64,000 nt of DNA from an uncultured virus (IMG/VR IMGVR_UViG_3300047480_000789) (IMGVR_UViG_3300047480_000789); one strand, 5' to 3'; counted from the first letter of the stretch, positions 6,130 to 52,527 are shown. Numbers and translations: made by a program. The notes: generated from the sequence alone by a model not told the origin.

Positions 6130-6200
6130 CTACGTGTGTTTGTTTAGTTTATAAATACTTTATTTTTAATCATCCTCGAGTTATTTCTATTTTTTTTTTA

Positions 6201-10043: not shown

Positions 10044-10058
10044 TTCTATAAATTACTT

Positions 10059-34906: not shown

Positions 34907-37033
34907 TTAGAAATCTAATTTAATTGCCAATACCTGAGCACCGTTTCTTTTAATTGGTGTGGAAGTTTTTGCAACTACTAATGATTCTTTATTAGAATTG
35001 AGTAACGCCACTTCAGTTATATACGTTGAGGTTGTACCCGTTATTGGATGTGTTGGATTTTGTGAAAACCCATTATCACTATTAGGGATATCCCCAAAAG
35101 TCCCCTCAGGTAAGTTAATCAGAAAATTCATTTGTTCAATATCCGTAGCCCTAACTAATTTAATGCTGCCAGGAAACGGTTGTTCGTCACCAAATTGTGG
35201 TTCGGTAGTACTATTTGTATCTCCTAAATAATTTGTTGTTAATCCTGAGAAATGATTTTCTAAATCAAACTTGTTTGAAGATGATGCGTCATACTGCGTT
35301 TTAGTTATTGTAAATGTTTTACCACTAAAATTGGTAACATTAATTAAAGATGAACCATCTCCACCAACTTCTGATGTTAAATCAATTTTTCTCCATTCGC
35401 TTGATATTGGTGTTCCAGTTGCACTATTTACAATTTGAACTAAAGCGGTGAATTTATTAGCAACAAATCCTTCATTTAATGACGACGTATTAGTCTTTAA
35501 AAAATTTAATTCTGAAACTACACCATCGCCAAATTTAAACGAAATGTTTGATGGTGTTGATGATGTACAACCATCGGTTGCACTACCTAATCTTACTTTA
35601 TTAAAATAATTACAAGGTAATGAGTTTAATTTAGTATCCCCCGTATATTCAAACATATATGTAACCCAAACGGTTTGACCTGTTGTACCTGTCAGCATAG
35701 AATTTGCTGCGGTGCTATTTGTTGGTGTTGCGTAAACTCTTGGTGAAGGTAATGTATATTTTCGGTTACTTCTGTAATCTAAAACCGCAACCAGTTCTTG
35801 ATCATCAATCACAATTATTTTGTTGTTTACAAATACTTTACCAACTCTATAATTATTTTCATCTAATAGATAACGATATTCTAATGCTTGTTTAGTTGTC
35901 GTTATATTCGATTTAATATAATATGGTGTAGAATCCATTTTAAATTTAGCTCCGATTGTATTCGGTTTTCTATGGTATAATATAAATGGAATAAAAACCT
36001 CAAAATAGTTTAAATCACTACTATCGTCCGGTGTTACCGTTGAACCTGTTGATGTTGATGAACTAATATAGTCGTCATATTTAAAAAATCTTTCTGGGTC
36101 TACGTCAATATCACCTAATTCGGAATAATGAATTATTGCAATTGTTCTTTGTTCTTCAGGTGTTACCATTATGATATCATCGCCATCCGTTGAACCTGTT
36201 GACATTGAGTTAGCAAATGACGTACCCGTGATTGTAAATCCTGTTGATGATAGTCCTTGTGCACTTACAAATGTTTGTCCATTTGATTTTGTGTATCCTA
36301 AAAATTGTTTGGTTGACTGATACACATTACTTGTGTAACCAGTTAAAGACTCATCGTCTGAAGTTGTACCAATTACATTTCTATCCCAAACAATATTCAT
36401 TGTCCAAGGATTTAATTGTGTGTCATCAATCAATTCGGGTTGGCATTTATTACAAACAACTTCAACATTTCCTAACAAACTTGATAAGTTCGGTAATGCT
36501 CTGTCTAAAGTCAGTGTATTACCACTAATACTTAAAACTTTATAAACTAAACTGTTTGTATTTCCTGTGATTGTATTTGTCAAACCTGAAAATGGTTTAA
36601 ATGCTACGGTAATATATTCAGTTGTTTGATATGTATTTCCTGTTAATACCACTAAACTAGTTGACCCACTAATATGTGTAAATGGTATTTTTTGTGTTAA
36701 ACATTCTATTGTTTTATTACTTGAACTTGATACGAATCCCGCAGGACTCATATCGTTTCTTAAAGGTATGGGTGCTAAGTAATTTGATATTGGTGTACCA
36801 TATGTTGTTAAATCAGTATCCCCATTTTTATATAAAAATGGATATTTAACACCACCTTCTTTATCTAATGAAGAAAAAACTTTCTGATTAGTTAATGATG
36901 TTGAATAGTCGAATTCAGAATCACCAATTTGGAAATATTCAATTTTAAAGTCTCCTTTAGCAATCGCCATTCTTCCTTTTTGGGTTATTCTAGCCGATAA
37001 AAATTCTGCGTTGTTACTATTTAAAAAACTCAT
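34907..37033 (-). CDS. Baseplate/tail-fibre attachment protein
   Basis: N-terminal ITQKGR..IA..IGD and C-terminal ITEVALLN..LVVAK resemble the tail-collar fibre (DUF3751-like) domain. Confidence 0.55.
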   Translation of the reverse strand: MSFLNSNNAEFLSARITQKGRMAIAKGDFKIEYFQIGDSEFDYSTSLTNQKVFSSLDKEGGVKYPFLYKNGDTDLTTYGTPISNYLAPIPLRNDMSPAGFVSSSSNKTIECLTQKIPFTHISGSTSLVVLTGNTYQTTEYITVAFKPFSGLTNTITGNTNSLVYKVLSISGNTLTLDRALPNLSSLLGNVEVVCNKCQPELIDDTQLNPWTMNIVWDRNVIGTTSDDESLTGYTSNVYQSTKQFLGYTKSNGQTFVSAQGLSSTGFTITGTSFANSMSTGSTDGDDIIMVTPEEQRTIAIIHYSELGDIDVDPERFFKYDDYISSSTSTGSTVTPDDSSDLNYFEVFIPFILYHRKPNTIGAKFKMDSTPYYIKSNITTTKQALEYRYLLDENNYRVGKVFVNNKIIVIDDQELVAVLDYRSNRKYTLPSPRVYATPTNSTAANSMLTGTTGQTVWVTYMFEYTGDTKLNSLPCNYFNKVRLGSATDGCTSSTPSNISFKFGDGVVSELNFLKTNTSSLNEGFVANKFTALVQIVNSATGTPISSEWRKIDLTSEVGGDGSSLINVTNFSGKTFTITKTQYDASSSNKFDLENHFSGLTTNYLGDTNSTTEPQFGDEQPFPGSIKLVRATDIEQMNFLINLPEGTFGDIPNSDNGFSQNPTHPITGTTSTYITEVALLNSNKESLVVAKTSTPIKRNGAQVLAIKLDF

Positions 37034-37037
37034 ATGT

Positions 37038-37045
37038 TATAAATA
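37038..37045 (-). promoter_or_regulatory. Representative TATTTATA putative late promoter
   Basis: Recurs upstream of about 14 genes (see findings). Confidence 0.65.
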
Positions 37046-37054
37046 TCCATTTGA

Positions 37055-38299
37055 TTAAAATCCTGTTATTATTGTTTGACAACCACCTGCCGATTGAAAA
37101 TAATCAGCATTAGACGGATGAAAAACTTGTCTTGTCTGACCTTCGTAACATAACCAATAATTATTTCCAGTTGCAAGTCCGGTTAATCCTAATGCTGTAA
37201 ATGTAGTGGCGGTACAGAATGTTGCCGACGGGCTACCTAAATCAAAAGTATATAATAACGTTCCCGAATCCACTTGTCCAGACGTTGGTTGTGTTGATTG
37301 TATGATTAACTTAGCTGCTGCGGTATTATTAGGTGCCGAAGCACAACTAAAATCTTGAGTTAATACTACATTGTCACTAGGTGTGTCGTTACTATCATAA
37401 ACTGTAAATGCGTATGTATTACCAACATAGTTATCTAAACTATCATATGAATATGGTAAATTATGTGGAGTATTATTTCCCGAAGGTGAAGTCATCACAA
37501 CATAATACCCCGTACCTGAACCTCCAGACGCACCGCTAATCGTAATTGTCACACCTGTTGGTGCGTATCCCACACAACTTGGAACCGCACTAAAGGTAAT
37601 TGGTGTTGGTCCTGTTATAGATTCACAATCCTCACAAGTTGAATGTTCCGATGATACGGTAATTGGTGTACTCATAGAATAACCAGTTACTGCAATTGTA
37701 TAACACAAACCATTTGATCCTTTTATAATTTCACCACCAACATAATTCGAACTATATTCGATAACCTGAGTTGCAGCATTGGTTGTACCACAAGGGTAAT
37801 ATAAATTCCAAACCATTATTTGAGATGGTGTTGCGGTCGGTGTTACTGTAGGAGTTGGGGTTAGTGTAAACGTTGGTTCAGGCGTAATAGTTGGGGTTGG
37901 GGTCGGCGTATCTGTCGGTACTGGTGTCGCAGTTGGTGTAGGTGTTGGAGTTGGTGTACTCGTCACCGTAGGAGTTGGAGTTATAGTCGGTGTAGGTGTT
38001 GGGGTTACCGGTGTATTGATTTTTATGTAATTAAAATCTGTTCCCAATACACAACCTCCATCATTTAAATTTGTGGGAACAACTTTAATTGTTTTAATTC
38101 CATCAGGAACAACAATATATCTACCATTTATTTGTGCTCTTGGTATGTTTGTTTGACCCGTAATTAAAAAGTAATCAGTTAAATCGTTTATTGTTTGTCC
38201 AGTACATTGTAAAATACTTCCAGTACATCCATATAAATCAACATTTAAAATTGATGCACCTAAATTTGTAAAACCTGTTAATTGTATTGTGAATGACAT
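37055..38299 (-). CDS. Cys-containing virion protein with PT linker
   Basis: PT tract, late-type motif upstream, within the structural cluster. Confidence 0.6.
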
Positions 38300-38331
38300 A
38301 TCCTATAAATAGTATTATCTATAAATTAAAT

Positions 38332-38359
38332 AAAAAACCCCTTAAAATAAAGGGGTTTT
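38332..38359. terminator. Intrinsic terminator
   Basis: AAAACCCCTT...AAGGGGTTTT inverted repeat. Confidence 0.7.
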
Positions 38360-38382
38360 AAAAATCTTTATGTGTTGTAATC

Positions 38383-38910
38383 TTAACAAGGTTGTGACCC
38401 TGCCGGATTACCAATAACCGCGGTTGATGGACTTATCGAATAAACTTCTGATAAACCTCCCAAATATCCTTCAACATAAACGAAATTATAACCAGTGTAT
38501 AATATCGATAATTGTTCATCTTGATATAATGTTATAAGTTTAACTGCACTTGCCGTATAACGATTATCATAATCAAATTGTGACATATAAACAGCATTAT
38601 ATACGTTAGTCCCTGGACACGTAGATGATTCGGTCAAACCAAGAATAAAAGAATTGTCTACTAAAACCCCTAACGATGATGTTGGTGTAACTGACCAATT
38701 TGTTGTCGTACTACAAGTCCCCGTACTCGCAATTGTACCTCCCGTAATGGCGTCATTAACACTATTAATCGTATAACCAGTTAGTAATTGACTTTTAGTG
38801 ATTCCTGTCGCAAGTTGTGAAGTTACATCTCCACTTGTTGTTCCCGAAATATTAAATGGCCCTGCCGCTGTTGATGCCGAACCTCCTGTTAACGTAAATG
38901 TTACATTCAT
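38383..38910 (-). CDS. Putative virion protein
   Basis: Thr/Gly/Ser-rich 175 aa; late-type motif upstream. Confidence 0.6.
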   Translation of the reverse strand: MNVTFTLTGGSASTAAGPFNISGTTSGDVTSQLATGITKSQLLTGYTINSVNDAITGGTIASTGTCSTTTNWSVTPTSSLGVLVDNSFILGLTESSTCPGTNVYNAVYMSQFDYDNRYTASAVKLITLYQDEQLSILYTGYNFVYVEGYLGGLSEVYSISPSTAVIGNPAGSQPC

Positions 38911-38952
38911 ATTTTTTTAATTCTTTTTATAAATATCTAATTATTTTTATTT

Positions 38953-41900
38953 TTATATACAATTTGGACAACTTCCCTCGTTATTGTATGACACAAACGC
39001 TTCAACAAATTCACCGATACTAGCGTCTTGTGGATTTGAGAAATTACCGTCAGCGTAAACACAGTCATTACCATATTCAGGTAATGTTAAATATCCGAGG
39101 ACAGGTAACAACGTTCCATAACTGTAGTAGTATTTCTTACCGGTTGTACAACTTGTGAATACCGTATATAATGTTGGTTCAGGATTTGGTGTTGCTGTCG
39201 GTGTAGGAGTTGGGGTAGCCGCTGGTGGTGTATATCCACAACTTACCGAATTACTTTCAATAAATGCGTTGTACGTACCACAATTACCATCGGCATATGT
39301 ACCATATAAATCAAAAGTATCACAATATGTATTTAACAATGTTCCTTCGGATGGGCAAGGTGTTGGAGTAATTGTTGGTGTTGGAGTTGGGGTTGGTGGA
39401 TTATCATTACAAGCTTGACAAGATTGTGAACGAGTTGCAACATCACCACTCATATGGAATATTTGTACATAGTTACCTTCATAAGATAACCAATATGTGG
39501 TTGTCCCTAACAATGTAAAGTAACTAGATGTAAATGTAGTTACAGAACAGAAATTAGAATTATTACCATATACGGTTATTGTTGTACCATTATTACATTC
39601 ACCGTAACCTGAAGGTTGTAAGTTATTTAATTTAACATTAAACGCAGGTTGTGGTGTTGGTGTTGGTGTTGGGGTATCTGTTGGTACCGGTGTTGCGGTT
39701 GGTGTTGGTGTTGGTGTTTCGGTTGGTGGTATCGGTGTACTAGTTGGTGTTGGGGTCGGCGTATCTGTCGGTACTGGTGTTGCAGTTGGTGTAGGTGTTG
39801 GAGTTGGTGGTACTGGTGTACTAGTTGGTGTTGGAGTAGGTGTTGGAGTGCTAGATACTATGATAACCTCAACATCAAAATTACAATCTATAAAAGGTGT
39901 TGCGGTAGGTGTAGGTGTGGCAGTCGGTGTTGGGGTTGGTGTACTAGTCACTACAATTGTATTCACGTCAAAGTTACAATCGGGAGTTGGGGTAGGTGTA
40001 ACAGTCGCTGTCGGTGTTGGGGTAGGTGTACTTGTTATTACCTCAATGTTTACATCAAAATCACAAGTTGGAGTTGCGGTAGGAGTCGGTGTTGGTGTAC
40101 CAGTCACAAAACTAACCTCCACATCAAAGTTACAATCGGGAGTTGCGGTAGGTGTTGGAGTAACTGTTATTGTTGGTGTAGGTGTTGGTGTACCTGTCAC
40201 GGTTGGTGTAGGTGTTGGTGTGAACGTTGGTTCAGGTGTAGATGTAGGTGTAACTGTTGGGGTCGATGTAGGTGTAACTGTTGGCGTAGCGGTTGGCGTC
40301 CCTGTAGGTGTAACTGTTGGGGTAGGTGTTATTGTTGGAGTTGGGGTTGGGGTCGGTGGTATTTCGACATAAGACGCACCTTCATTACCACTACCAAATC
40401 TACAATCTTTTATATCATTATTACCAATTGCCGTTAATCCAAAATTTAAATAATTTTTTACCGTGCAATTATTTGGACCGTATTTAAAAGATTTAAATTT
40501 AATTCTTTCATCTCCTTTTTCGTCAACATATATATCATATGAGATTAATGGTGCAATTTCAGTTGTACCCGTGATTCCCGAATAACCAATGGAAGTTCCA
40601 TATAAATTATTATCACCAACTTTATCTCTGGTGTAACCCGAATATGTATTAATATAGTTAATAGACCCTAATATGGCTCTTTTCCATAATGACATTATTT
40701 CGTCATAATCTGGATTTAAAGTATTATTGATTGTTTGCCCTGTATATTCCGTATCAGAAGTGTAAGTATAAAGTCTTGCACTTACATTATGTACTGTAGT
40801 GTCTCCCGAAACTAAAACATATGAATCAATAGACGCTCCAGAATAAACAACCCCATCAATTTCAAATGTTGGGTAAAATTTAATATATCCGTCGTGTTCA
40901 AATTCGCCAATTTCGTCAATTTCGATTGATAATCCAAGTTCACTATCCATCCATTTAATTTCATCTTCAAAAAATCGTGTTGATGTTTGTCCTGTAATTT
41001 CCGGATAAACGTAATCGACAATTGTCACTGGTTGACATCCATATTGATATTTGTATTTTGATCTACCAAAAATAGTATTTTCAATTAAATTACCTCCTGT
41101 CCATAATGTTGTGGCAGGTATAATTTGTTCCAAGACTTTCGTCCAATTTGGACTCATTTTATTTACAAATTCGTTTACATCTATAAAGTTGTAAGGTGTG
41201 AATCCCGTGTGTGTAATGTAATCTCTGAATATATCTTCTAATTGAGTGTAATTCTTTTTATATTTTATTAAATTAGAATTTTTAATTTGTTGGTTTAATA
41301 AATTGTCAACATATTCAGCGAACGATACGCTATTTTGTGGCTCTAAACTATTTGTACCAAATGTTAAATTTAAATCTCTCGATTTACGATATATGTCATA
41401 ATCGATTGCCTGAGATGATGAAATGTAAACATTTAAATTTTTTCTATTAAGAATCAGGTTTGAGTCGTCATTTAATATTTCACCTTTAACGTTATCAACA
41501 ACACTAATTAAACCATAACCTGTATCTAAACCAGGTAATGTTCTATACATATCAAAATAATCTTCACCATACGTGAATGGACTATTCTTTGTTACTATAG
41601 TTTTAGTTCTACCGGTCAATATCGATTTTTCATCATCCAATATTAATAATGATTTGTGATCTATGGTATTATCGTACCAACCTGATCCTTTTTGAAAAAA
41701 TATATCCCCTGTAACTCCACTAATTGATTGTGGATAAAATGATAATTCCTGAACGGGATATCCATCTCTATTTAACGACGTTGTACCGGTTGTTATTAAT
41801 GGGTAATACGTGTAACCAGAATATGTTACATCGTTAATTGTCCCACCAGTAGGTAAAAAACCGACACTTATATGTTTCTTATTACCACTAATAACATCAT

Positions 41901-43383
41901 AAATTTCATCTTCCAAATCATATGATATTGGAAATGATTCAACCTTATAAACATACTGTTCAATTTTAATCATTGGTTCGGGAGCACCTAAGAATCTTAA
42001 AAAGAATTCAATAGATTTTCTTGTACCTTTTGATTTATATATGTGTGCAAGATTGACCAATAATCTTCTGTAAAATTCGTATTCGGCCTCAACTAATGAA
42101 ATACCACTTGGTTTGCCGGGATATTGTACTGTTTTAGTGTAAAGTAAATCATCAAAACTATTTTCATTTATTAAATTAACCGTGTCTAAACCTAAAGTAT
42201 TTGATAGGTTTTTCAATAATATATCAGGTAAATTATTAACACCGTCATAACTTACGTTTCTCATAAACGCAATATTATCGATGTATTTTTTTACCTTATC
42301 AAAACTTTGACCATATAATTGAAAAACCGCTTCTGCCTTTTTTCCATCGGTATCGAATTCAAATAGTTGTGGTGAACTTAAAAATCTTAAAAGTAAATTA
42401 GATTTATAATCATCAATCTCATCAGCAATATCACTTAGATTTCTAAGATAGTTATCATATTCGATACCAACAATTAATAAATTCCAATTATCTTTCGTTG
42501 AAACGGGCCAAGAATAATTAACTGTGGTTAATTCTGTTTTTGTTTCGTCGAAACTATCTCTCGGTACTTTGAAACTTGCGGTATACTTTGGTGATGTTTC
42601 TCTATTTAATAAACTTCCTTCTAAGTCATCTAAACTTAAAAAAAATTCTTCACTCACACCATCGTTTGGTCTAATTAAAATATTTTCACTATAAGTTGCG
42701 TTACCATTAAACGGGTTACCACTGACTTTTAGAGTGATAATGTTAGATGAATTTGGTTCAGTATACGTTAAAATATTATACGTAACCCCACTAAGTTCAA
42801 TGACATATTTTTTATATGATGAATAGAAATCTCTTACGGGATTAACACTTGATACCGTTGTATTACTTTTTGGTCTTTTAAAAATAACATCAAAAGGATT
42901 ATATAACATACCAACCTCAATATTAAACGTGGTAGTTTTTGTTTTTGTGTTATAACTCGAATTAAACGCAGTAAACCCACTTACACTAACGTAACTGTTT
43001 TTATCAACTAAAACTCCCGCTGGAAATTTTTTAATGATATTAATTAATGTAACCGATAGTCTGTTTTTTAATGAACCAAATAACGATTTACCTGAGTCAT
43101 TTTTCGACCCATTAAATTTAATTTCTTTTTTTGTTGACTTAACGGATTTACCATTAATGGTTGTACCGCTTACGTTTTCTTCTTTTAAATCATCTAATGT
43201 TAAAAAATCAGAAAAAGGATTTGTTTTAAAATTCTTAGTATCTCTTTGGACAATTCCACTGTCAAGTGCGAAGTTAGTGTTGGTCAATTGACTAGTGCCC
43301 TTGGTGATTTGACCACCAACTAAATTATCACTGAATGTATCGGCACCACTGCCCGCTTGACTTGGAACTTTATATTTTACCAT
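38953..43383 (-). CDS. Large baseplate wedge protein (P2 gpI/T4 gp7-like core) with PT-rich tail
   Basis: [12 protein letters not shown] and [28 protein letters not shown]. Confidence 0.65.
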
Positions 43384-44303
43384 TAGATATTAGTAATTGT
43401 ATCGAAATTTAATGTTTCATCAATATCTGTGCGATTCTCTCTAACTTCGTATAGAGTTTCTTGAATATCATCTTTAATTTCATAAAGATTGTATTGTCTA
43501 TAGATATTGTTTTCTTTATCGTAGATTGTGTAGATACCTTCACTAACCGCCTTAGTTTGATTACCGTAAAGTGCGTTTGCTAAAGTAGAGGCATCGTGTT
43601 CGACCATATCAATCTCAATAGTTGTTGGATTAAAATATGTATTCGTTAAGATAATTTTTTGTCCAGGTAAACCAATGAATGGGACGGTATTTGGTTTATT
43701 TGATGGTGCGGATGATGGTGTTATAGTTAAAAATAAAAAATTAGTTGCACCTTCACTATATTGATATCTAACCGATTTTTGTGTTGAGCTATTTAAATTG
43801 GCGGTAACAGGTGTACAATAAAACGAAGAGGTCACCACTTTATAGAAGTTGGTTACTTTCTTATTATCTGACGAATTAATGTATTCAATTCTATAACCCA
43901 CCAATCCTTGTGGTGTAAATTTATTTTTGTCGGCAGATGTCACATTACTAATATCAATAATTAAACCTCTAACCGATGGTAGTGACGCCAAAACACCACA
44001 ATCCATAATTGAAGTTCTAATTTGTTTTGGTCTCAAATGAAGTGTATAAATCCCTAAATCAGTAAAATCATCCGCATTTAATTTTAAATTATATAAACCA
44101 CCCAAAACCTCAACATTTTGTGCTAAGGTGTCGGTTGTTGTTCCTGAAGTTTGGTAAATAGGTGTTAAAACTTGATTCGCAGTTAATTTTTTTAATGTAA
44201 CTGTTGAGGTTGATAACCTATTTGGTACGTAATGATATAGTATCTCAACGTCATCCGGTGACACATCTGCGGGTCTAACTACTCCATATGATCCTACTGC
44301 CAT
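43383..44303 (-). CDS. Putative structural protein
   Basis: 306 aa, late-type motif upstream, coupled to the wedge gene. Confidence 0.6.
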
Positions 44304-44328
44304 AATCTTTTAATTATAAATATAATTT

Positions 44329-45279
44329 TTATTGTTTTTTAACATTAAAATATCCATTTCCATAGACATCTAATTCACTCATATTATCAATTTCACCAAG
44401 TCTTAGGTTATTTTCCATTACACCTTGTCTACCTCTTTCAACAAAAATGTCCGAATAAATCGTTGGGTCATCAATAAAACCTAAGAAATGTTCATTTCGG
44501 GTTATCATATTATTGAAGACTTCTTCTTGTGTAAAACCAGTTGTTGTTCCCGTAATCATTGTATAATTGTCAGGAAAGTCTCTATAATATAAACCATCTA
44601 TTGTATAACCCGACCAAATTGAACCGTCGGTAGTACCTGTTGACATTCCGGGTATTGTGGATGAACCATATTGTTTTAATTCATTTATTCTACTTTTACC
44701 TAATGCCATATAGGTAAAACCACTAACAGTATGACCCGTATTATTTGTGTAATCTAAATTATTAAGATAATTCTGTGTCCTACCCGATTGTAAATAATAC
44801 GTAGTATTATTCAAATACGGTAGACTTGTACCAGTATAAGTGTAAGTTCCTAATGAATCTGCTACAGTTATGTTTTGTGGTACGGTTATTTTTTTAGATA
44901 TTTTTTCTTTAGTCCAAGGTGAGTCTAACGTTAAAGTAATTATATATTCCGTATTTCCCGTATATGTATGTGTTTTCGATGGCATTCCTTGTCCAACAAT
45001 ACCACTATTAACCGTTAAACCTGATGTGTTTCCGTCACCCCAATTTATTGTATATGTCTGTTCAACAATTTTCCTAAGTTTATCAGGATTAACTGTGTTA
45101 AAAACCGTAATAGTTGATCCTGTTTGTGTATATGAAAAATTACATAATTGTTCAACTTGCTCCACTCCACCATCAAATGATACCAATACACCCATTTCAT
45201 CTACCGTACTTTCTAAAAATATTGGTAAATTAATACTAACTCCCGTCTGTCTTAATAATGTATGTTCTATTTTTTTCAT
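44329..45279 (-). CDS. Putative structural protein with PKD-like domain
   Basis: YTINWGDG...THTY...YIITLT. Confidence 0.6.
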   Translation of the reverse strand: MKKIEHTLLRQTGVSINLPIFLESTVDEMGVLVSFDGGVEQVEQLCNFSYTQTGSTITVFNTVNPDKLRKIVEQTYTINWGDGNTSGLTVNSGIVGQGMPSKTHTYTGNTEYIITLTLDSPWTKEKISKKITVPQNITVADSLGTYTYTGTSLPYLNNTTYYLQSGRTQNYLNNLDYTNNTGHTVSGFTYMALGKSRINELKQYGSSTIPGMSTGTTDGSIWSGYTIDGLYYRDFPDNYTMITGTTTGFTQEEVFNNMITRNEHFLGFIDDPTIYSDIFVERGRQGVMENNLRLGEIDNMSELDVYGNGYFNVKKQ

Positions 45280-45290
45280 TTTATTTTTTA

Positions 45291-47000
45291 TTAATTTATA
45301 CCGCCAGTTCCTCCACCATCACAATTATATGATAAATTCGATATTATATATCCATCGTTATCAACTTGAATTACCGAGAATTGTCCACCTGTTAATGTAT
45401 TAAATTGTGAGTCTTGTGTTACCGCATAGTATTGATTATTACCATAAAATGTTCCATAACTAGCATCCGCATAAATCCTCGTTCCAATAATAGCATTTGC
45501 AAATGTATTTCCCTGACTCCACCATTCCCCACTTGTTACATAACCTACTTGATTTGTACAGAAATCACTCGTAGACGATAATCCTGAACTTCTATAATAC
45601 GCATATAATGCTGGTGGCGCTGTAGTTGGTGTAACCGTTGGTGTTGCCGTCGGTGTGGGTGTGGGTGTTAAAGAAGTACCGCCAGCAGTTGCCGTGGGTG
45701 TTGGTGTTGGAGTACTTGTCGCAGTAGGTGTAGGTGTAATGGATGTTCCACCAACCGTCGCAGTTGGTGTTGGGGTTGGTGTAAATGTTGGTCCACCTGT
45801 TGGTGTTACCGTTGGTGTTGATGTGGGTGTTGGGCTTGGTGTGGGTGTCGATGTCGATTCAGGTAAACCTGTAGGTGTTGGGGTGGGTGTTCTTGTTGGT
45901 GGTATTGGTGTAGGTGTTGCAGTTGGTCCCCCTAATGTAGGTGTAGGTGTAGGTGTTGGTGTCGGTGGTGTTTCAATTAATGTTCCCCCACCAAATTCGT
46001 AAAATTTTATAGTATCACTTATTCCATCACCAATTCTATTTCCTTTAGTACCACCACTATATGTGTAAATTTGATACTCTCTTTTAAAATTATTGAAATC
46101 GACTTGGAAATACATATCATCTTGTTCAACAACTTTATGTGATGTACTAAAAATGTTATTATTAAAATTTAATATTGATCCGTCTTTAGCATTAAAGAAT
46201 CTAGCAGTCATAAAGAACGTATTCATCCCTTCAACCACATTTCTTTCATAGGTTATATTGACTTTTGGTATATCAAAAGTTTGACCCGTCATACCGTACA
46301 ATATTGTGGTACCAGTTGGTAAAACAACATTATTGGTATTTTTTTGTGTATCTAAAAATAAAAATTGTGTTTGGGTCGTTCCTGTGTTATTGAACGTGTA
46401 CCTATCTAAAGTTGGTACTCCCCACAAATCGGTCTCCTCTAATGCGGTTTCGTCGTCAAACCAAAACAAATACATATTCTCCTTATTCCTATAATTTGAA
46501 CCCATAAAGACAGGTAAATGTATATAATAACCAAATGTATTGCCTTTGTAAAAATATTTTTCACCTAATGGTAATGAAAGATTTTTTGAAAAAACCATTC
46601 TCCTATTTTGTCTTGTTGGTGGTTCACAAATTAATGTTGTTCCCGAAATAATAGACGGTGTTTTATAAAATTCTAACCTAAAAAAACTTTCTGTTGATTG
46701 TCTCAACATAAATTCATTTTCCGTTGTGGTTATACCGACCGCCTCATATTCTTGAACATATGTTGAACCACTTGAGAAATAAAATTGATACCATATATCC
46801 GTTTGTTCAATACCTAATGCTGACGTATATGGTTTATGAATATATCTAACCGTTTCATAATTCTGTGCCGGATTAATTATATCCTTTAATATCTCATCTT
46901 CAAATTGTGCAAGATTTTCTTGCCAACCTAAGTCAGTTTTAAAATCTTGTTCAGTATTGAGTACGATATTTAAATCGTTTGTGTTAGTTAATATTTTCAT
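45291..47000 (-). CDS. Putative structural protein with PT linker (start revised to ATG 47000)
   Basis: TAATG overlap with the upstream gene; long PT tract. Confidence 0.65.
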
Positions 47001-48772
47001 TAACAAATAATTTGATTATTAAATCCGGTTAATCCGTCAGTTTTATTGTTATATCCTTGTTCGTTTCTTAAATAAAAATTTATATCTGTTGCCACATAAT
47101 GCATATCATTTATATATGGAAATTTAGTTCCATTACCTTCTTGATCAACAAAACCGTGGTCGTACACATCTCTCCATTTCCAAACCTTATTTTCACTATC
47201 AAATATTGTGTTCTCAGGCAGATTTATTAATTCTTCTCTTTTTAATTTTGACGTTTCTAAATAAGGTGATAATTGCCTTAATTTAATTCTGTGATGTGGT
47301 TGATAATAATAACCAACCGGATTACTCATATCTTGTCCGTGGTCAAAAAATGGTATTGTACCATCTAAAGTTTCCCTATGTGAAAATCTATGAAATGCCT
47401 CACTAACAATTCTTTCTTTTAATTCCTTTTCGTTGTACTCAACAAATGCACCAGTTAATACAGTACCTAATGGTAATGTTGTTCCACCAGTAAATGTTAT
47501 TCCCGAATACGATGATGTATTTGAATTAAATGTAGTTGTACTAATAGATGTTTCAATGGCGGTGGTACCACTAAATTGATTATCGAGCCAATCATTGTGA
47601 AAATTAAATTTATAACCGACTTTTGGTGGATATGTAAAATACCCATTCCCATTTCTCAAAATCATCGTAGCATAAACTTCAGTGGGTGTGTATTTTAAAT
47701 TATTAGTGATACCCGATAAAACAAATGTCTTTTTAAAATCAAATAAAACCGATTCAGGTCTATTTCTTTCAACTAACACGTCGTTTTCTTTTAATGCACT
47801 TTCAAATAAAATTTTTCTTTCATTTTCCCAAATTGGTGATTCAAAACCAACTTTATCTAATATATAATCTTCTTCAGTTGTTAATGTCTTATGTTTATGT
47901 ACATAATAAGATGAGGTGCTACCCGTTATATTATTTAAATCTAAACACCTTTTACCTAGTGCAAATATTGTACCACTTAGATTATAATTTGTTTCAAATT
48001 CACTTTTTAAAATGTTTATAACATAATTTTTTGAATTATATATTTCATTACCTACGTTATCAATATAAAATGTTCTACCACTAACCGCAACTGAATTTGT
48101 TAATGTACCACCCGATAAAATGATATATTCACCAGATTTCATACCGTGTTCAATTGGTGATGTTAATGTATAATAATTACCATTATCTTCTACCCTAAAT
48201 GGTATACCGTCACCGGCCGTAAATGAATATGTTGTTCCACCTGAAAACGTATATTTCATTGGAAAAGTAGAATCTTGGTCATTAACATATGTTAAATAAA
48301 GATTCCAATTTTTATATGGTGCTTGGATTGGTGTGATAGATGTGTGACCCGTATAACGTCCTCCTGTAAGTTGGACTTGTGGAACGAACGTACCTAATGT
48401 GGTACCTGTTACTGTAATGTTTTCTTCTCTTAATACGTCATTTCTAAGTAATGCAAATTCATTATAAGGAACAAAACCTTTTTTATTGGTACTATTGCCA
48501 TCGTCAGTTAAATAAAAATTCTTTAATAGTGGTGTATACTCAGTTGTACCCGAATACATATTTCTAAAAATCATTTTTATTTTACCAAATATTTTATAAC
48601 GTTTACTTTCATTTCTTTCATCATCGAATAAAGTTGGTAAATCCAAAAGGATGTCTCTCTCACCTTGTCTCATTAACACACTATCACCCTCTAATTTTAC
48701 ATTAAGTGTTAAATCTTCTTCTCTCGCCTTAAAGTACCTTTTACTTGGTAATAGTATTTCTTTTTTTTCCAT
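47000..48772 (-). CDS. Putative structural protein
   Basis: 590 aa in the baseplate cluster. Confidence 0.6.
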
Positions 48773-51700
48773 TATTCAGATGATTTAAACGCCCCTTTTG
48801 GTCCGTAATATTTTATTAATAAGTCTACCGCGGAATTTTGAGGTCTTAATCCGAAGTAAAATAAAAATGGTGTTGATAAAACTTGTTTATTCCCCATATA
48901 ATTTAATTTTGTTTGGAATATGAAAGATTCTCGGTAATCTTTTACGTAACTATCACTTTGTGCGGTCCATACTTGTTTTGTTCCGTTCCACAAAACCACA
49001 TATGTTGTCCCACTTAGTGGGTCTTTAGTTGTTCCTGATTGTACGTGTAACCATAAATCACCCTCAACATAACCCGTAGCCACATTAGAATCGAATAAAC
49101 CTTCAATTGTGTTGGTCGGAGCACTTAAACTAACAACTTCAAATCTTTCTAACGCATTTGTCGTGTTACCCGTAAATGAAAATGTATTATGATTAATTGT
49201 AATTGGTTTTAACAAATACTCTTCTTCACCATCTTTCATAACGTAGTTGGTTGTGGTACTTGACTTATCACCAATAGAAAATAATCTTTGTAATTTCATC
49301 GATGCAATTTCTTTTCTATCCCAACGTTGATTATCATCATTTGAATTATATGGACCAAAACCTTCTCCACCTTTGTCCCATAAAAAGAATGGAACTTTTT
49401 GTGAATAATCACCCAACCTGAAATTCAAACATTGTCTTATAAATGCACCATTAATATCTAATTTTAAATCAATAGGTGTTGCACCATAATTTCCATTGAT
49501 GTCCTTAAAATATGTTGCAAAATATGGGTCTTCTGGATCCATTAATTCACCATTATAAAGAAAATATTGTGGACTATCTAAATCAAATGCCTCTATACCT
49601 ACCTCACAATTTATTGACATTAATTGTGTTATGTCCCCATCGATAATTCCGATATTATCACCTAAACCTTCTCCAGTGAAGAAATCGCCCACATCGAAAT
49701 TACCGTTAGCGGTATCCATTCTATAATTAATTGCGTGTTCAACAATATTTGCCGGATCTTGATATGACGTTGCCGTAATATCTCGTATCACCGAACAAGT
49801 TGGGTCGATTCTTGGGTCTTGACAAATTTCATATAAAAACTCATCTCTTACTCCAACATCATAAAACGTAGTAGGGTGTAAAATTTCTTTATACTTTACT
49901 GTATTGTCGTTATTCCTATATACTTGTCCTAAAAAACCCGCATCAGGATTATATGGTGTCGTTCTATAATAAAACGTTTCATCCAATACATTAAAGAAAA
50001 CTAATTCTCTTGGGAATTTAGAACCTCTTTGACTTAAATCACGAATTGTTCTGTTATCCCATTTTATTTTTTTATCAAACTTAAAGAAATAAAGCATTCC
50101 GTGTAACCAATTGTCGATAAACGAATAATTTGTTACTCCTCCACAAAAATTAATTCCTACCCTTTTTCTTCTATACCATTCTTTTAAAATTGTCCAATTA
50201 CGATTTTTCCCATCAATAACAGGAACAATAATAACAACACCATCTCTTATTTCTGATAAACCTGATTTTGTTTTTTTGTTAAAGGTTAACAAATCACCAC
50301 CATCAATTCTACATCTTTCAGGTAATCTTAGTGTATCTAAATCACCACCAACTGAAGACGCTAATGTCCATTGTGGACCTGGAGATGTAAGTGATTCTGT
50401 ATATGGTGAACCTGTATAGTATGGTTTACCCTTTTTAAAATTAGGTCGATAATTTGCACCCCAATCTTTAAGTATGTCTAAATCTTGACCACCAGCATAA
50501 TTTGATGGTGTTAGTGGTGAACCGTACCCCGTACCTCCACTTATCCAAATGTAGGTATGTGTGTTATTCGGTTCATCATAAAATTTGTCATATTTTGCAC
50601 ACCCCTGTTCGACGTTAAACGAATTACTAACAACGGGTGTACCAGTATCGGGATCTGTTGTACATTCTTCACAATCGGGATATGTTGTTAATGGTAAAAT
50701 CATTTGGCCCGCTTCCATCATACGTAATCCGGGTCTCGATAACGAATCTCTACCAAAATCGGCTAATGCGTGTCCAACAAATGGTAAATCAATTTGTCTT
50801 AGTGACCTACCCGCAAACCACAATGCCGATCCAACCGATTCATAAACAAATAAAGAAACGACCGCAAATATATATTGAATAAATGTGATAATTTCAGATA
50901 AGATTAACCCAAATTTAATTCTATTTCTAAATGCGAAATTTGTTGGTATATAATTAGCATTACCAGTACAGTCATCTTCGGCATTTGGTCTAATTTCTTT
51001 TATACCCAAGAACGCGTCTCTTCTTGATAACCCTAAAAAACTTTCGACCGCAGATACTTCATAGTGTGAACCTTGAAATGATGAGGGGGTATAAACTTTA
51101 CCAAAAATAAATTTATAGAAAACATCTTCAGGTATACCATTATTGTTAGTACCCAACATTAAATCTAATTTGTGTTTTCTCCAAGCAATCGCAGTTGGTG
51201 TATTTTGATTTGTACCGCTATTACCCATTGCTTGGAATGTCATCCCACTTTGAGGTGCAATTTTTAAATAGTCTTCAAACACATTTGAAAATTGGTAGGT
51301 GGTTAAAAATGATTCCTCATATTCACCATAATAATTACCTCCATTAATTAAATCATCATTAAATTCTCTGATTTGTGGGACTAAGTATTTCGCTGTTCCT
51401 GTTTTTACATTATCAGCATCTAAACTAAATCTAAATCTGGCAATTGCCGTTGTTGGTATACCTTTATTGTGGTCGTTTGTTAATTCTTGTTCACCAAATT
51501 GATTAGTGTAAACATATTCCAAATTCATCGGTAGTACAATCATTGAGGTACCGTTCTCGTCAATTGTTTCTGTAATATTGTAGTATTGTAATTCAGGATA
51601 AAGAGTTACACCGTCCGAACCATATACTTTTCTACCTGTTTGTCTAACACATTCAATTTTACCAGTAGTTGTTTGTAAATTACATTTATAACCACTTTTT

Positions 51701-52527
51701 CTTCTAATAACACCCGTTCTTTTTATCGCGTCTTCGTCATCGTCAGTAATTGATGAGGCTAATATTAAAGATATCGGTTCAATTTTGATACCTGTTTCCG
51801 ACATATCAAAATCACTTCTTGTAATTCCAATTTCACACATTTCCTCATTACCCCAAAATGGGTAAACTTGAATGGTCTTATCGTATGATATTATTTGTGG
51901 TAAACCATCAATATCCGTACTTGATTTAAATTTATAATATCTATCAAAATCATCAGCACCCCTACCTTTTTTAATAAAGTCGTATGGTCTTAATGAAAAA
52001 CAACCTATATCTGATAAATCAATATCTACGTGTAATGTTTGTTCACCAGTAGGTACTCCCCAAATCATAAAGTCACCAGACTCATTTGTTTTAACCGTAA
52101 ATCTATAATAACTCTCATAGACCTCTAATACTTCTTCTCTTGTTAAAATGTCAGATTGGTCAGGAAAAGTACCAACGGGGGTATGTCCACCGTGTTGTTG
52201 TCTTTTTGGTAATAAATTATAACGAATGTTATCATCATTTCTCATAGTTGTGTCCGTATATGGATACAATTTAGAAATAACCGGGTCATCTACGTCACTA
52301 TCTTTTTGTTTAACGAATATCGAAACTCTTACGTTTGGGATACCGAAACCGTCGTTAGCAGTAATTCTACCACAAACAACTCCATAATCAGAACACATCG
52401 ACGTATATATGTCTTGTTGTGAAAACTTTAAAGACAAAATTTCCAATACATCGAAATCTTGTTTCAATTCTACCGTAATCTTTTGGTCTTTACCAATATT
52501 TGTTGAAATTCTGTGTTTTTGAATCAT
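48772..52527 (-). CDS. Large putative structural protein with carboxypeptidase-regulatory-like domain and hydrophobic segment
   Basis: VVCGRIT...GIPNVRVSI...TNESGDFMIWGVPTG; hydrophobic LILSEIITFIQYIFAVVSLFVY. Confidence 0.55.
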   Translation of the reverse strand: MIQKHRISTNIGKDQKITVELKQDFDVLEILSLKFSQQDIYTSMCSDYGVVCGRITANDGFGIPNVRVSIFVKQKDSDVDDPVISKLYPYTDTTMRNDDNIRYNLLPKRQQHGGHTPVGTFPDQSDILTREEVLEVYESYYRFTVKTNESGDFMIWGVPTGEQTLHVDIDLSDIGCFSLRPYDFIKKGRGADDFDRYYKFKSSTDIDGLPQIISYDKTIQVYPFWGNEEMCEIGITRSDFDMSETGIKIEPISLILASSITDDDEDAIKRTGVIRRKSGYKCNLQTTTGKIECVRQTGRKVYGSDGVTLYPELQYYNITETIDENGTSMIVLPMNLEYVYTNQFGEQELTNDHNKGIPTTAIARFRFSLDADNVKTGTAKYLVPQIREFNDDLINGGNYYGEYEESFLTTYQFSNVFEDYLKIAPQSGMTFQAMGNSGTNQNTPTAIAWRKHKLDLMLGTNNNGIPEDVFYKFIFGKVYTPSSFQGSHYEVSAVESFLGLSRRDAFLGIKEIRPNAEDDCTGNANYIPTNFAFRNRIKFGLILSEIITFIQYIFAVVSLFVYESVGSALWFAGRSLRQIDLPFVGHALADFGRDSLSRPGLRMMEAGQMILPLTTYPDCEECTTDPDTGTPVVSNSFNVEQGCAKYDKFYDEPNNTHTYIWISGGTGYGSPLTPSNYAGGQDLDILKDWGANYRPNFKKGKPYYTGSPYTESLTSPGPQWTLASSVGGDLDTLRLPERCRIDGGDLLTFNKKTKSGLSEIRDGVVIIVPVIDGKNRNWTILKEWYRRKRVGINFCGGVTNYSFIDNWLHGMLYFFKFDKKIKWDNRTIRDLSQRGSKFPRELVFFNVLDETFYYRTTPYNPDAGFLGQVYRNNDNTVKYKEILHPTTFYDVGVRDEFLYEICQDPRIDPTCSVIRDITATSYQDPANIVEHAINYRMDTANGNFDVGDFFTGEGLGDNIGIIDGDITQLMSINCEVGIEAFDLDSPQYFLYNGELMDPEDPYFATYFKDINGNYGATPIDLKLDINGAFIRQCLNFRLGDYSQKVPFFLWDKGGEGFGPYNSNDDNQRWDRKEIASMKLQRLFSIGDKSSTTTNYVMKDGEEEYLLKPITINHNTFSFTGNTTNALERFEVVSLSAPTNTIEGLFDSNVATGYVEGDLWLHVQSGTTKDPLSGTTYVVLWNGTKQVWTAQSDSYVKDYRESFIFQTKLNYMGNKQVLSTPFLFYFGLRPQNSAVDLLIKYYGPKGAFKSSE

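What the first reader, a model, noticed from the sequence alone, without database searches (positions are those of the whole stretch)
34907..52527. Virion-specific [S/T]-G-x-T motif: a candidate sequon for phage-directed protein modification
Seen: in non-repetitive structural proteins most SG/TG dipeptides are followed by x-Thr. My hand counts are 15 of 17 in 34907..37033 (SGST, TGNT, SGLT, TGYT, TGFT, TGQT, TGDT, SGKT...), 10 of 13 in 44329..45279 and 11 of 16 in 47000..48772. The motif is also common in 38953..43383 and 48772..52527. In NrdA it is 0 of 5. These proteins are not paralogues and the codons differ, so DNA duplication does not explain it. Inference: selection has placed one short Ser/Thr motif across unrelated virion proteins, as expected of a recognition signal for a modifying enzyme (e.g. 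an O-glycosyltransferase giving a glycan coat) or of a docking site for a decoration protein. The fibre genes at 1-10 kb additionally favour [S/T]-G-S and SAS.
Basis: partly seen in the sequence, partly recalled or inferred. Interest (0 to 1): 0.8.

Follow-up and report, generated by a model that had tools for sequence, protein, structure and literature searches.

The report
Ser/Thr-Gly-x-Thr motif on phage tail
The outer tail proteins of this uncultured giant phage and its relatives carry about ten times too many copies of the short motif Ser/Thr-Gly-x-Thr, which may mark where the phage's own enzymes attach sugars, though no chemistry has been done.

Summary
In nine consecutive proteins after the gp25/gp6-like baseplate genes, 72 of 137 Ser/Thr-Gly dipeptides are followed by x-Thr (background Thr 12.8%). 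No shuffle reached this count, and controls sat at expectation.

The signal is a coupled four-residue unit with hydrophobic flanks, almost no Pro at x and few charges nearby. Codons differ and no paralogy was detected.

The motif runs through a large clade of uncultured aquatic giant phages. It marks outer virion parts only: tail module and outer sheath domains (47 of 87), not sheath core (2 of 22), gp6-like wedge (0 of 164) or replication enzymes. T4 (17 of 159) and two cultured relatives lack it.

Sites turn over while density is kept, and whole subclades of one family have lost it, so the fold does not need it.

The window's contig encodes a conserved family-2 glycosyltransferase and two further glycosyltransferase-like genes outside the window.

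Leading reading: a recognition motif for a phage-encoded modifying enzyme, probably O-glycosylation (about 0.4). A clade-specific turn idiom (about 0.33) is not excluded. Nothing links enzyme to motif. The fibre "[S/T]-G-S" is collagen-like repeats; "SAS" is rare.

The parts
34907..37033 (-). 708-aa tail-module protein with no known family; the richest case. Its residues 107-199 form a small beta-barrel domain with 5 motif sites.
   Evidence: 15 of 17. Shuffles 0 of 10,000. No Pfam or PHROG family. AF2 pLDDT 67, pTM 0.68. Weak fold matches to phage tail domains, Z<=8. The family has 666 representatives.
37055..38299 (-). 414-aa tail-module protein, moderately enriched.
   Evidence: 5 of 16. 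Shuffles 300 of 10,000. phrog_15511, unknown function.
38383..38910 (-). 175-aa tail-module protein.
   Evidence: 4 of 8. Shuffles 55 of 10,000.
38953..43383 (-). 1476-aa tail-module protein with Pro-Thr linkers and a C-terminal phrog_15511 part.
   Evidence: 15 of 33. Shuffles 0 of 10,000. phrog_15511 at residues 1176-1355.
43383..44303 (-). 306-aa protein inside the module with few Ser/Thr-Gly dipeptides.
   Evidence: 1 of 1. Its family in relatives: 30 of 63.
44329..45279 (-). 316-aa tail-module protein with the highest site density, 3.2 per 100 aa.
   Evidence: 10 of 13. Shuffles 0 of 10,000. Density. AF2 model poor, pLDDT 49.
45291..47006 (-). 571-aa tail-module protein.
   Evidence: 6 of 12. 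Shuffles 124 of 10,000.
47000..48772 (-). 590-aa tail-module protein.
   Evidence: 11 of 16. Shuffles 0 of 10,000. Family in relatives: 481 of 665.
48772..52527 (-). 1251-aa protein directly after the gp6-like gene, weakly enriched.
   Evidence: 5 of 21. Shuffles 55 of 10,000. Family in relatives: 227 of 838.
52595..54427 (-). gp6 / Baseplate-J-like wedge protein. Serves as an internal negative control.
   Evidence: 0 of 12. 0 of 164 in 30 relatives. phrog_6 and phrog_219.
54429..54878 (-). gp25-like baseplate wedge protein. Marks the start of the module.
   Evidence: PF04965, E 2.7e-11. No Ser/Thr-Gly dipeptide at all.
55041..57473 (-).
   Evidence: 0 of 5. PF02867, E 5.5e-199.
1060..12200 (-). 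Three collagen-like fibre proteins. They are the source of the '[S/T]-G-S' remark and are not part of the motif.
   Evidence: Pfam Collagen, E 3e-92, 1e-35 and 3e-50. 233, 101 and 130 G-X-Y triplets, mostly GTS and GSS. [ST]G.T 13, 8 and 1.

Best explanation
Phi-[S/T]-G-x-T-Phi is a short linear motif. Phi is a hydrophobic residue, x is almost never Pro and rarely Asp, Glu or Lys, and charged residues are rare around it.

This clade of uncultured aquatic giant phages keeps the motif at high density on the outward-facing parts of the virion: the proteins distal to the baseplate, the tail proteins and the outer sheath domains.

The motif most likely serves as the recognition site of a phage-encoded trans-acting enzyme. 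O-glycosylation of Ser or Thr in the host cytoplasm before or during assembly is the most plausible case. The result would be many interchangeable modified sites, a coat, and not a few critical ones.

Shown: the enrichment; the coupling of the two halves; the protein-level origin; the clade-wide spread; the restriction to outer virion parts; site turnover; dispensability for the fold; and glycosyltransferase genes on the same contig.

Inferred: that an enzyme reads the motif; which enzyme; which residue is modified; and that any modification exists.
For: 1. Coupled four-residue unit. Thr follows [ST]-G-x in 53% of cases, but follows G-x in only 12% when no S/T precedes (background 12.8%). Odds ratio 8.3, p 5e-19.
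2. Sharp specificity across 392 clade proteins and 3,406 motifs. At position 0, Asn and Asp are depleted to 0.42-0.47 times background, although they are the usual structural stand-ins for Ser/Thr in turns. Ser is not enriched at +3 (0.9x). Pro at x is 0.05x. Glu, Asp and Arg at -1 are about 0.1x.
3. Trait of outer virion parts only. In complete relative G002 the enrichment sits in the tail module, the sheath, a 519-aa protein and a 1947-aa protein. The other 310 ORFs have 54 of 663. G004 shows the same pattern. Six sheaths: N-terminal and inserted part 47 of 87, conserved C-terminal core 2 of 22. gp6-like wedge 0 of 164.
4. Not a general property of such proteins. T4 structural proteins 17 of 159. 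Flavobacterium phage immuto 22 of 153 and Microcystis phage Mel-JY01 7 of 121.
5. Turnover with maintained density. In 60 homologues of the 708-aa protein, 98 alignment columns carry a motif and only 6 do so in at least half the sequences. In 46 homologues of the 316-aa protein the figures are 44 columns and 7. Every homologue still has 5 to 22 sites.
6. Motif residues are no better conserved than other T, G or S/T in the same proteins. This fits many weakly selected, interchangeable sites.
7. Dispensable for the fold. Two well-supported subclades of the 708-aa family are at background: 5 of 59 and 0 of 10, against 44 of 84 and 66 of 100 in their sister groups.
8. Varies by lineage across several tail proteins at once. 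Locus L279: 9 of 54. Locus L222: 67 of 113.
9. Enzymes exist. The window's contig carries a 259-aa family-2 glycosyltransferase (PF00535, 23.8 bits, cut-off 23.3) about 39 kb beyond the window. It is 64-100% identical across the 80 loci kept, of the 208 viral-contig stretches that encode a relative. Beside it lie a 408-aa glycosyltransferase (phrog_7162, 1.9e-39) and a weak 354-aa one.
10. Four of four relatives searched have 4-6 family-2 hits.
11. Precedents for multi-site cytoplasmic O-glycosylation of Ser/Thr next to Gly. TibC/Aah modifies Ser in loops such as N-S-G-G (PMC4358343, passages read). SgtA modifies Thr in G-P-T (PMC7157674, passages read).
Against: - No link between any transferase and the motif was found.
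- The conserved family-2 enzyme could act on DNA, lipid or polysaccharide. It sits near dUTPase and PhoH genes.
- The Aah/TibC-type enzyme (TIGR04414) is present in G002, G003 and G006, and truncated at a contig end in G007. It is absent from G004 (93% complete) and G005 (86%), which are still motif-rich. It was not seen on the window's contig among the 73 loci listed.
- Non-virion proteins do not avoid the motif: window 5 of 72 at Thr 5.5%; G002 rest 54 of 663 at 6.0%. A promiscuous cytoplasmic enzyme might be expected to cause avoidance.
- Hydrophobic residues at -1 and +4 and the position just before a strand suit a structural turn as well.
- Motif ratios of the 708-aa family and of neighbouring tail proteins correlate only weakly across loci: rho 0.10, n=65; rho 0.24, p 0.086, n=52.
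- No motif-poor lineage could be checked for loss of a transferase.
- Exposure rests on secondary-structure strings of two medium or poor models and on analogy with T4 gp18 (recalled), not on coordinates.
Confidence: 0.4

Rival explanations
1. A purely structural idiom. In this clade [S/T]-G-x-T is the preferred way to build a tight turn or strand start in the all-beta decoration domains of outer virion proteins. One possible form is a hairpin closed by a Ser/Thr-Thr cross-strand pair with Gly in the turn. No modification is involved.
For: - Among 16 sites in model blocks with pLDDT of at least 65, the Gly is in coil in 12.
- A strand begins at the Thr or within two residues after it in 9 of these 16.
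- Three of the 16 show the strand, two-residue turn, strand pattern (S170-G-N-T and S596-G-L-T of the 708-aa protein, T53-G-S-T of the 316-aa protein).
- Hydrophobic residues are enriched about twofold at -1 and +4.
- Sites are mildly clustered at spacings of 8-14 residues, as hairpins would be.
- When a site is lost, substitutions are conservative: Thr to Ser, Asn or Val; Gly to Ser, Asn or Ala.
- Outer decoration domains are beta-rich, which would also explain the restriction to outer parts.
Against: - Asn and Asp at position 0 are depleted, not enriched.
- Asp, Lys and Glu, common in exposed turns, are depleted at x, while Tyr, Phe and His are enriched.
- Secondary-structure contexts are mixed: after helices, before 3-10 turns, inside strands.
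- The same family folds without the motif in two subclades.
- T4, immuto and Mel-JY01 tail proteins do not use it.
- Motif residues are not better conserved than other residues of the same type.
- A clade-wide preference across undetectably related proteins needs a common cause that this reading does not supply.
Confidence: 0.33
2. A direct binding motif without covalent modification. It could be many weak Thr-lined contact sites for host polysaccharide, or a docking site for a shared assembly chaperone or decoration protein.
For: - Restriction to outer virion parts.
- Many interchangeable sites, fitting multivalent weak binding.
- Loss at the level of whole lineages.
- Aromatic residues enriched at x.
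Against: - No candidate partner was identified.
- The sheath and baseplate-proximal proteins are unlikely receptor binders.
- A four-residue motif is short for protein docking.
Confidence: 0.15
3. An artefact of composition, of low-complexity repeats, of hidden paralogy or of a DNA-level signal.
For: - These proteins are Thr-rich (12.8% against 5.5%) and contain Pro-Thr linkers.
- In the window, the position-0 codon ends in G more often in motifs (24 of 72) than in other Ser/Thr-Gly (9 of 65).
Against: - Local block shuffles and masking of linkers leave the signal intact.
- The reverse motif and near-miss motifs sit at expectation.
- No periodicity in site spacing.
- No blastp similarity among the nine proteins.
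- Ser is encoded by both AGY and TCN codons.
- The codon-ending bias is not reproduced in 497 clade proteins: TCG 0.09 against 0.11, ACG 0.16 against 0.19.
Confidence: 0.02

Closest known systems
Bacterial autotransporter heptosyltransferases (Aah/TibC, TIGR04414) acting on AIDA-I and TibA
   Same: - A cytoplasmic enzyme puts sugars on many hydroxyl residues next to Gly, in short loops between beta-strands of a surface protein.
- TibC sites include Ser-313 in ...Q-N-S-G-G-A-V... (PMC4358343, passages).
- Relatives of this phage encode a full-length member fused behind about 360 extra residues. G002 scores 281.9 bits against a cut-off of 200. G003 and G006 also exceed the cut-off.
   Different: - TibC modifies Ser and not Thr (same passage). 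Here position 0 is Ser or Thr and +3 is strictly Thr.
- The substrates here are not beta-helical autotransporters.
- The enzyme is absent from motif-rich G004 and G005 and was not seen in the window or on its contig.
- In G002 it lies next to a collagen-like fibre gene, which is its more likely substrate.
SgtA and BclA3 of Clostridioides difficile (O-GlcNAc on Thr of collagen-like G-P-T repeats)
   Same: A GT-A type transferase glycosylates Thr two residues after Gly on a surface protein (PMC7157674, passages). The window's contig has a GT-A type (family 2) enzyme, and the phage has collagen-like fibres.
   Different: - SgtA has a TPR tail. The 259-aa enzyme here has none by Pfam.
- The motif lies outside the collagen runs, whose triplets are GTS and GSS.
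- G-x-T without a preceding Ser/Thr is not enriched: 36 observed against 44.7 expected.
Virion O-glycosylation of mycobacteriophages (Freeman et al. 2023)
   Same: Phage-encoded glycosyltransferases decorate the phage's own structural proteins. I know this only through the sentence citing it in PMC12619734; the paper itself is not held.
   Different: There the glycans sit at the C-termini of capsid and tail-tube subunits (as quoted). Here the candidate sites are a defined four-residue motif scattered through tail, baseplate-distal and sheath proteins. No chemistry exists for this clade.
Asn-x-Ser/Thr N-glycosylation sequon and glycan shields of enveloped viruses (recalled)
   Same: A short sequon with Pro excluded at x and a hydroxyl residue downstream. 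Sites turn over while their number is kept.
   Different: N-x-[ST] itself is not enriched here: 69 against 80.3 expected. The chemistry would be O-linked, and the phage assembles in the cytoplasm.

Membership tests
Enzyme-plus-sequon protein glycosylation system (generic) | Acceptor motif over-represented beyond composition in the substrate set only | tested here: met
   72 against 13.2 (sd 3.4), 0 of 2,000 local shuffles. Other window proteins 5 of 72. G002 rest 54 of 663.
Enzyme-plus-sequon protein glycosylation system (generic) | A transferase encoded by the same genome | tested here: met
   None in the window. On the same contig there is a 259-aa PF00535 protein, a 408-aa phrog_7162 glycosyltransferase and a weak 354-aa one. 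Their substrate is unknown.
Enzyme-plus-sequon protein glycosylation system (generic) | Motif and enzyme gained and lost together across lineages | tested here: inconclusive
   The 259-aa enzyme is in 4 of 5 relatives searched; the miss is 63% complete. It has no homologue in 50,697 cultured-phage records, which also lack the tail proteins. Genomes of motif-poor lineages could not be reached.
Enzyme-plus-sequon protein glycosylation system (generic) | Covalent sugar on the motif residue | not testable with these tools
   Needs mass spectrometry of virions or of co-expressed proteins.
Aah/TibC autotransporter heptosyltransferase system | TIGR04414-family enzyme present | tested here: inconclusive
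   Above cut-off in G002, G003 and G006 and truncated in G007. No PF01075 hit among 51 window proteins. The window's contig is not among the 73 loci listed of 91 matches. The contig's completeness is unknown.
Aah/TibC autotransporter heptosyltransferase system | Enzyme co-occurs with its substrate motif | tested here: not met
   G004 (93% complete) and G005 have no match. G004 is still motif-rich: for example 14 of 26, 11 of 15, sheath 11 of 23.
Aah/TibC autotransporter heptosyltransferase system | Acceptor is Ser, not Thr, in a strand-loop-strand | tested here: inconclusive
   Position 0 is Ser in 33 and Thr in 39 of 72 motifs. The strand, two-residue turn, strand pattern appears at 3 of 16 confident sites.
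SgtA/BclA3-type collagen Thr glycosylation | GT-A domain followed by TPR repeats | tested here: not met
   The 259-aa protein matches PF00535 only. No TPR in it or in G002's family-2 proteins at E<=0.001.
SgtA/BclA3-type collagen Thr glycosylation | Acceptor Thr in G-x-T collagen triplets | tested here: not met
   The motif lies in non-collagen proteins. Collagen runs here are GTS and GSS. G-x-T without Ser/Thr in front is at or below expectation.
Bacteroidota general O-glycosylation, D-[ST]-[AILVMT] (sequon recalled) | That sequon enriched in the substrates | tested here: not met
   14 observed against 25.4 expected; 10 of 2,000 shuffles are as low.
Asx/ST-turn or two-residue beta-hairpin motif | Asn/Asp interchangeable with Ser/Thr at position 0; one uniform turn geometry; required by the fold | tested here: not met
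   Asn 0.42x and Asp 0.47x at position 0. Mixed secondary-structure contexts. Subclades at background: 5 of 59 and 0 of 10. Geometry could not be measured because no coordinates were available.

The most novel reading that the evidence does not exclude
A whole clade of aquatic giant phages uses a defined O-glycosylation sequon, Phi-[S/T]-G-x-T-Phi. A conserved phage transferase reads it in the host cytoplasm and coats the outer tail, baseplate periphery and sheath with glycans. Sites turn over like the glycan shield of enveloped viruses, and lineages that lose the enzyme let the motif decay. This would be the first defined sequon for phage virion glycosylation.
Probability: 0.33. Interest if true: 0.8.

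Novelty: new variant of a known kind. Interest (0 to 1): 0.6.

Why it matters
If the motif is a sequon, the surfaces of phage particles in lakes and oceans may be chemically different from what their gene sequences suggest. That would bear on host recognition, stickiness to polysaccharides, resistance to proteases and antigenicity.

It would also give a sequence rule for predicting modified sites in thousands of uncultured phage genomes. It would supply a compact tag-and-enzyme pair for protein engineering.

If the motif is structural, it is still a clean case of a clade-specific four-residue building block kept by selection across undetectably related proteins. That is unusual and can be tested by structure determination.

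Three literature searches found no description of the motif. This scan's own earlier notes list similar Ser/Thr-Gly or Gly-x-Thr excesses in other uncultured phages. The phenomenon may therefore be broad.

Tried and rejected
Homology and fold searches that gave nothing useful:
- Cultured-phage relatives of the 316-aa and 708-aa proteins: no tblastn match.
- Solved structures by sequence for the 708-aa family profile, the 590-aa and the 1251-aa proteins: nothing meaningful.
- Foldseek against PDB with the 708-aa model: no match at E<=0.001.
- VIA-align wide: only the small domain 107-199 matches phage tail domains, at Z<=8. The tool's own note places that in the common range.
- ESM Atlas: only unnamed viral clusters.
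- AF2 of the 316-aa protein gave pLDDT 49 and is usable only for residues about 45-135 and 210-245.

Access limits:
- The window's genome is not held.
- The nearest held record, G001, is a 55-kb fragment without family-2 hits.

Attempts to reach motif-poor lineages:
- Viral contigs with P0121: no relative.
- Viral contigs with the profile of the second poor clade: only motif-rich relatives at 41% identity or less.
- Metagenome contigs: one 54%-identical contig, with the gene at its end and no upstream tail genes.

Readings tested and dropped:
- DNA-level signal: rejected clade-wide.
- Periodic repeat: rejected.
- N-x-S/T and D-[ST]-[AILVMT] sequons: not enriched.
- G-x-T alone or [ST]-G alone as the unit: rejected, because each half is at background without the other.
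- The Aah/TibC-type enzyme as the reader of the motif: rejected as a general explanation.

The first tree run did not finish. It was repeated with FastTree.

Full report
**Setting.** All genes in the window lie on the - strand. Read in the direction of transcription, the order is as follows.
- A T4-like replication block comes first: gp32-like, UvsX-like, exonuclease, DnaB-like, NrdB and NrdA.
- A gp25-like wedge protein follows at 54429..54878, then a gp6/Baseplate-J-like wedge protein at 52595..54427.
- Nine proteins with no known family follow, from 48772..52527 down to 34907..37033.
- After these come a RuvC-like resolvase and a primase.

The nine are therefore the baseplate-distal or tail-fibre module. 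Tool tables name the window's record as a 213,706-base viral contig.

**The observation.**
- Pooled over the nine proteins, 72 of 137 Ser/Thr-Gly dipeptides are followed by x-Thr, against a Thr content of 12.8%.
- Ser at that position is not enriched (12 of 137).
- Whole-protein shuffles never reach the observed count in four proteins, 0 of 10,000 each.
- Shuffles within 20-residue blocks, which keep local composition, give 13.2 (sd 3.4) against 72 observed, 0 of 2,000.
- The reverse motif and four of five near-miss motifs sit at expectation; [ST]A.T is below it.
- An unbiased scan of 12 gapped shapes, after masking 461 residues of Pro-Thr linker, puts TG.T and SG.T far ahead of everything else.

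**The unit is four residues.**
- When Ser/Thr precedes Gly, Thr follows two residues after the Gly in 53% of cases. Without Ser/Thr in front it is 12%.
- When Thr follows, Ser/Thr precedes in 67% of cases. Otherwise it is 19%.
- Both lower values equal background. The odds ratio is 8.3, p 5e-19.
- So neither 'G-x-T' nor '[ST]-G' is enriched on its own.

**Protein level, not DNA and not duplication.**
- Ser uses both AGY and TCN codons, and Thr uses all four of its codons.
- In the window, the position-0 codon ends in G more often within motifs (24 of 72 against 9 of 65).
- That bias disappears in 497 clade proteins.
- blastp finds no similarity among the nine proteins and no internal repeats.
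- Two of them share phrog_15511.
- Spacing between sites shows no period, only mild clustering at 3-4 and 8-14 residues.

**Extended logo** (392 clade proteins, 3,406 motifs, redundancy not removed).
- Ile, Leu, Tyr and Phe are about twofold enriched at -1. Ile and Phe are enriched at +4.
- Glu, Asp and Arg at -1 are about 0.1 times background.
- Pro at x is 0.05 times background. Glu, Lys and Asp at x are 0.26-0.49 times.
- His, Thr, Tyr, Gln and Phe are enriched at x.
- Asn and Asp at position 0 are 0.42-0.47 times background.

**Spread.**
- Homologues of the 316-aa and 708-aa proteins in 145 viral-contig loci all carry the motif. In one search I dropped duplicates and rows shorter than 80% of the query.
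- By family over 1,188 ORFs of those loci, the tail-module families run from 0.27 to 0.72.
- In the same loci the gp6-like wedge has 0 of 164, ClpP 0 of 118, SbcC-like 2 of 205 and RuvC-like 0 of 73. These rows are homologous to one another and not independent.
- A profile of the 708-aa family finds 666 representatives. The top 150 run at 0.33-0.58 per block of ten.
- Eighty metagenome loci, some from marine surveys, show the same enrichment.

**Not a general property of such proteins.**
- T4 structural proteins: 17 of 159.
- The nearest cultured relatives by the gp6-like protein share the gp25-gp6-large-proteins-primase gene order.
- Flavobacterium phage immuto has 22 of 153 and Microcystis phage Mel-JY01 has 7 of 121.
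- Their downstream proteins are not detectably homologous to the nine. This control therefore speaks to protein class, not to the same folds.

**Where on the virion.** I read two near-complete relatives in full: G002 (335,630 bases, 100% complete by CheckV) and G004 (310,691 bases, 93%).
- In G002 the enrichment is confined to a short list:
  - the tail module;
  - the tail sheath (7 of 17);
  - a 519-aa unknown protein (8 of 11);
  - a 1947-aa unknown protein (10 of 24);
  - mildly, the major head protein (3 of 7).
- The remaining 310 ORFs have 54 of 663, at Thr 6.0%.
- G004 shows the same picture.
- In six sheath proteins the N-terminal and inserted part has 47 of 87. The C-terminal core that matches sheath profiles has 2 of 22.
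- By analogy with T4 gp18 (recalled), the inserted domains face outward and the C-terminal domain forms the inner sheath.
- The gp6-like and gp25-like inner wedge proteins have no motif.

**Dynamics.**
- In 60 homologues of the 708-aa protein, 98 alignment columns carry a motif in at least one sequence. Only 6 columns do so in half or more.
- In 46 homologues of the 316-aa protein the figures are 44 and 7. Alignment error in variable regions inflates these counts somewhat.
- Each homologue still keeps 5 to 22 sites.
- Motif Thr, Gly and Ser/Thr are no better conserved than the same residues elsewhere in the same proteins.
- Among 110 of the 150 representatives with at least 8 Ser/Thr-Gly, the ratio is overdispersed (chi-square 192.6 on 109 df).
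- On a FastTree of the 94 representatives of 600-820 aa, motif-poor members fall in small supported clades.
- Two such clades have 5 of 59 and 0 of 10. Their sisters have 44 of 84 and 66 of 100. No replacement motif appears.
- So the fold does not need the motif.
- Across loci, several tail proteins can be low together (L279, 9 of 54) or high together (L222, 67 of 113).
- The overall correlation between the 708-aa family and its neighbours is weak, however.

**Structure.**
- The 708-aa model has pLDDT 67 and pTM 0.68. The 316-aa model has pLDDT 49.
- Among 16 sites in blocks with pLDDT of at least 65, the Gly is in coil in 12.
- A strand starts at the Thr or within two residues after it in 9 of these 16.
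- Three sites show a strand, two-residue turn, strand pattern, and three lie inside strands.
- Only secondary-structure strings were available, so exposure was not measured.
- Residues 107-199 of the 708-aa protein form a small beta-barrel with five sites. It weakly resembles domains of other phage tail proteins (Z<=8).

**Enzymes.**
- No glycosyltransferase lies in the window.
- Four of four relatives searched carry 4-6 family-2 matches.
- One is a 259-aa protein that lies among head and tail genes in G002.
  - It is 69-80% identical in G004 to G007.
  - 208 viral-contig stretches encode a relative of it.
  - One of these contigs is the window's own, about 39 kb beyond the window (L353:6001-6777, 74% identity).
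- Beside it on that contig lie three further genes:
  - a 408-aa glycosyltransferase (phrog_7162);
  - a weak 354-aa one;
  - a late-sigma-like gene.
- The 259-aa protein has no tblastn match in 50,697 cultured-phage records.
- G002 also encodes a 707-aa protein whose C-terminal 340 residues match TIGR04414. This family is the Aah/TibC 'autotransporter strand-loop-strand O-heptosyltransferase'. The score is 281.9 bits against a cut-off of 200.
- G003 and G006 have this enzyme too, and G007 has it truncated at a contig end.
- G004 and G005 do not have it and are still motif-rich.
- This enzyme therefore cannot be the general reader of the motif. In G002 it sits next to a collagen-like fibre gene with a Peptidase_S74 chaperone domain, a more natural substrate.

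**Reading.** Several facts fit a recognition site for a clade-specific trans-acting factor better than a fold requirement.
- The two halves of the motif are coupled.
- A hydroxyl residue is demanded at position 0, and Asn and Asp are excluded there.
- Thr at +3 is specific.
- Pro is excluded at x.
- The motif is restricted to outer virion parts.
- Sites turn over while their density is kept.
- Whole subclades have lost the motif.

Glycosyltransferases are the obvious candidates, with precedents in TibC/Aah and SgtA. The link is circumstantial, however, and a structural idiom is not excluded. I put the sequon reading at about 0.4, the structural reading at about 0.33, direct binding at about 0.15, and artefact at about 0.02.

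**Literature.**
- Searches found no description of this motif.
- PMC12619734 (passages read) describes aquatic giant phages predicted to infect Bacteroidota, with four core glycosyltransferase groups. I did not test whether this phage belongs to that lineage.
- Supplements were not consulted.

**Earlier notes of this scan** (unchecked AI notes). They report similar Ser/Thr-Gly, Gly-x-Thr or [S/T]-G-x-[S/T] excesses on outer virion proteins of other uncultured phages. I tested two of their leads here.
- The SgtA-type lead: not met.
- The Aah/TibC lead: the enzyme is present in some relatives but does not co-occur with the motif.

Noticed in passing
window 1060-12200 (- strand): Three fibre proteins of 1689, 1280 and 713 aa carry long collagen-like runs, 233, 101 and 130 G-X-Y triplets, almost all G-T-S or G-S-S. 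Ser/Thr-rich collagen of this kind is itself a classic glycosylation substrate, as in BclA-type proteins.
   Followed up: partly
L314:11982-14102 (G002 291982-294102); also G003, G006, G007: Giant-phage relatives encode a full-length Aah/TibC-family protein O-heptosyltransferase (TIGR04414, 281.9 bits, cut-off 200) fused behind about 360 extra residues. It lies next to a collagen-like fibre gene with a Peptidase_S74 chaperone domain. 91 viral-contig stretches encode a relative.
   Followed up: partly
L353:931-7475 (window's own contig, about 98-105 kb): A gene cluster outside the window: a 408-aa glycosyltransferase, dUTPase, PhoH, a weak 354-aa glycosyltransferase, a conserved 259-aa family-2 glycosyltransferase and a late-sigma-like gene.
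   Followed up: partly
window 38953-43383 and neighbours: Pro-Thr linker stretches (461 residues masked over the nine proteins) dominate the raw residue-pair statistics. A related note of this scan describes Cys-rich modules on Pro-Thr stalks in a look-alike phage.
   Followed up: partly
window 34907-52527: The Bacteroidota O-glycosylation sequon D-[ST]-[AILVMT] (recalled) is under-represented in the nine proteins: 14 against 25.4 expected, and 10 of 2,000 shuffles are as low.
   Followed up: no
window 12869-13528: A GIY-YIG homing-endonuclease gene sits between the thioredoxin/glutaredoxin genes and an AAA ATPase gene.
   Followed up: no
window 14970-16344, 24233-25042, 26925-27599: The phage carries a NusG-like antiterminator, a D12-class adenine DNA methyltransferase, a sigma-70-family factor and a ClpP protease.
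   Followed up: no
L304:15010-17616 (G002 95010-97619): An 869-aa protein of a relative combines LCCL, C-type lectin and cohesin-like domains and has 5 of 19 motif sites. It is a possible adhesin.
   Followed up: no
window 52595-54427 and 30 relatives: The gp6-like wedge protein has 0 of 164 Ser/Thr-Gly followed by x-Thr across relatives, below the roughly 12 expected from its Thr content. The rows are homologous to one another, so this may reflect a few conserved columns.
   Followed up: no
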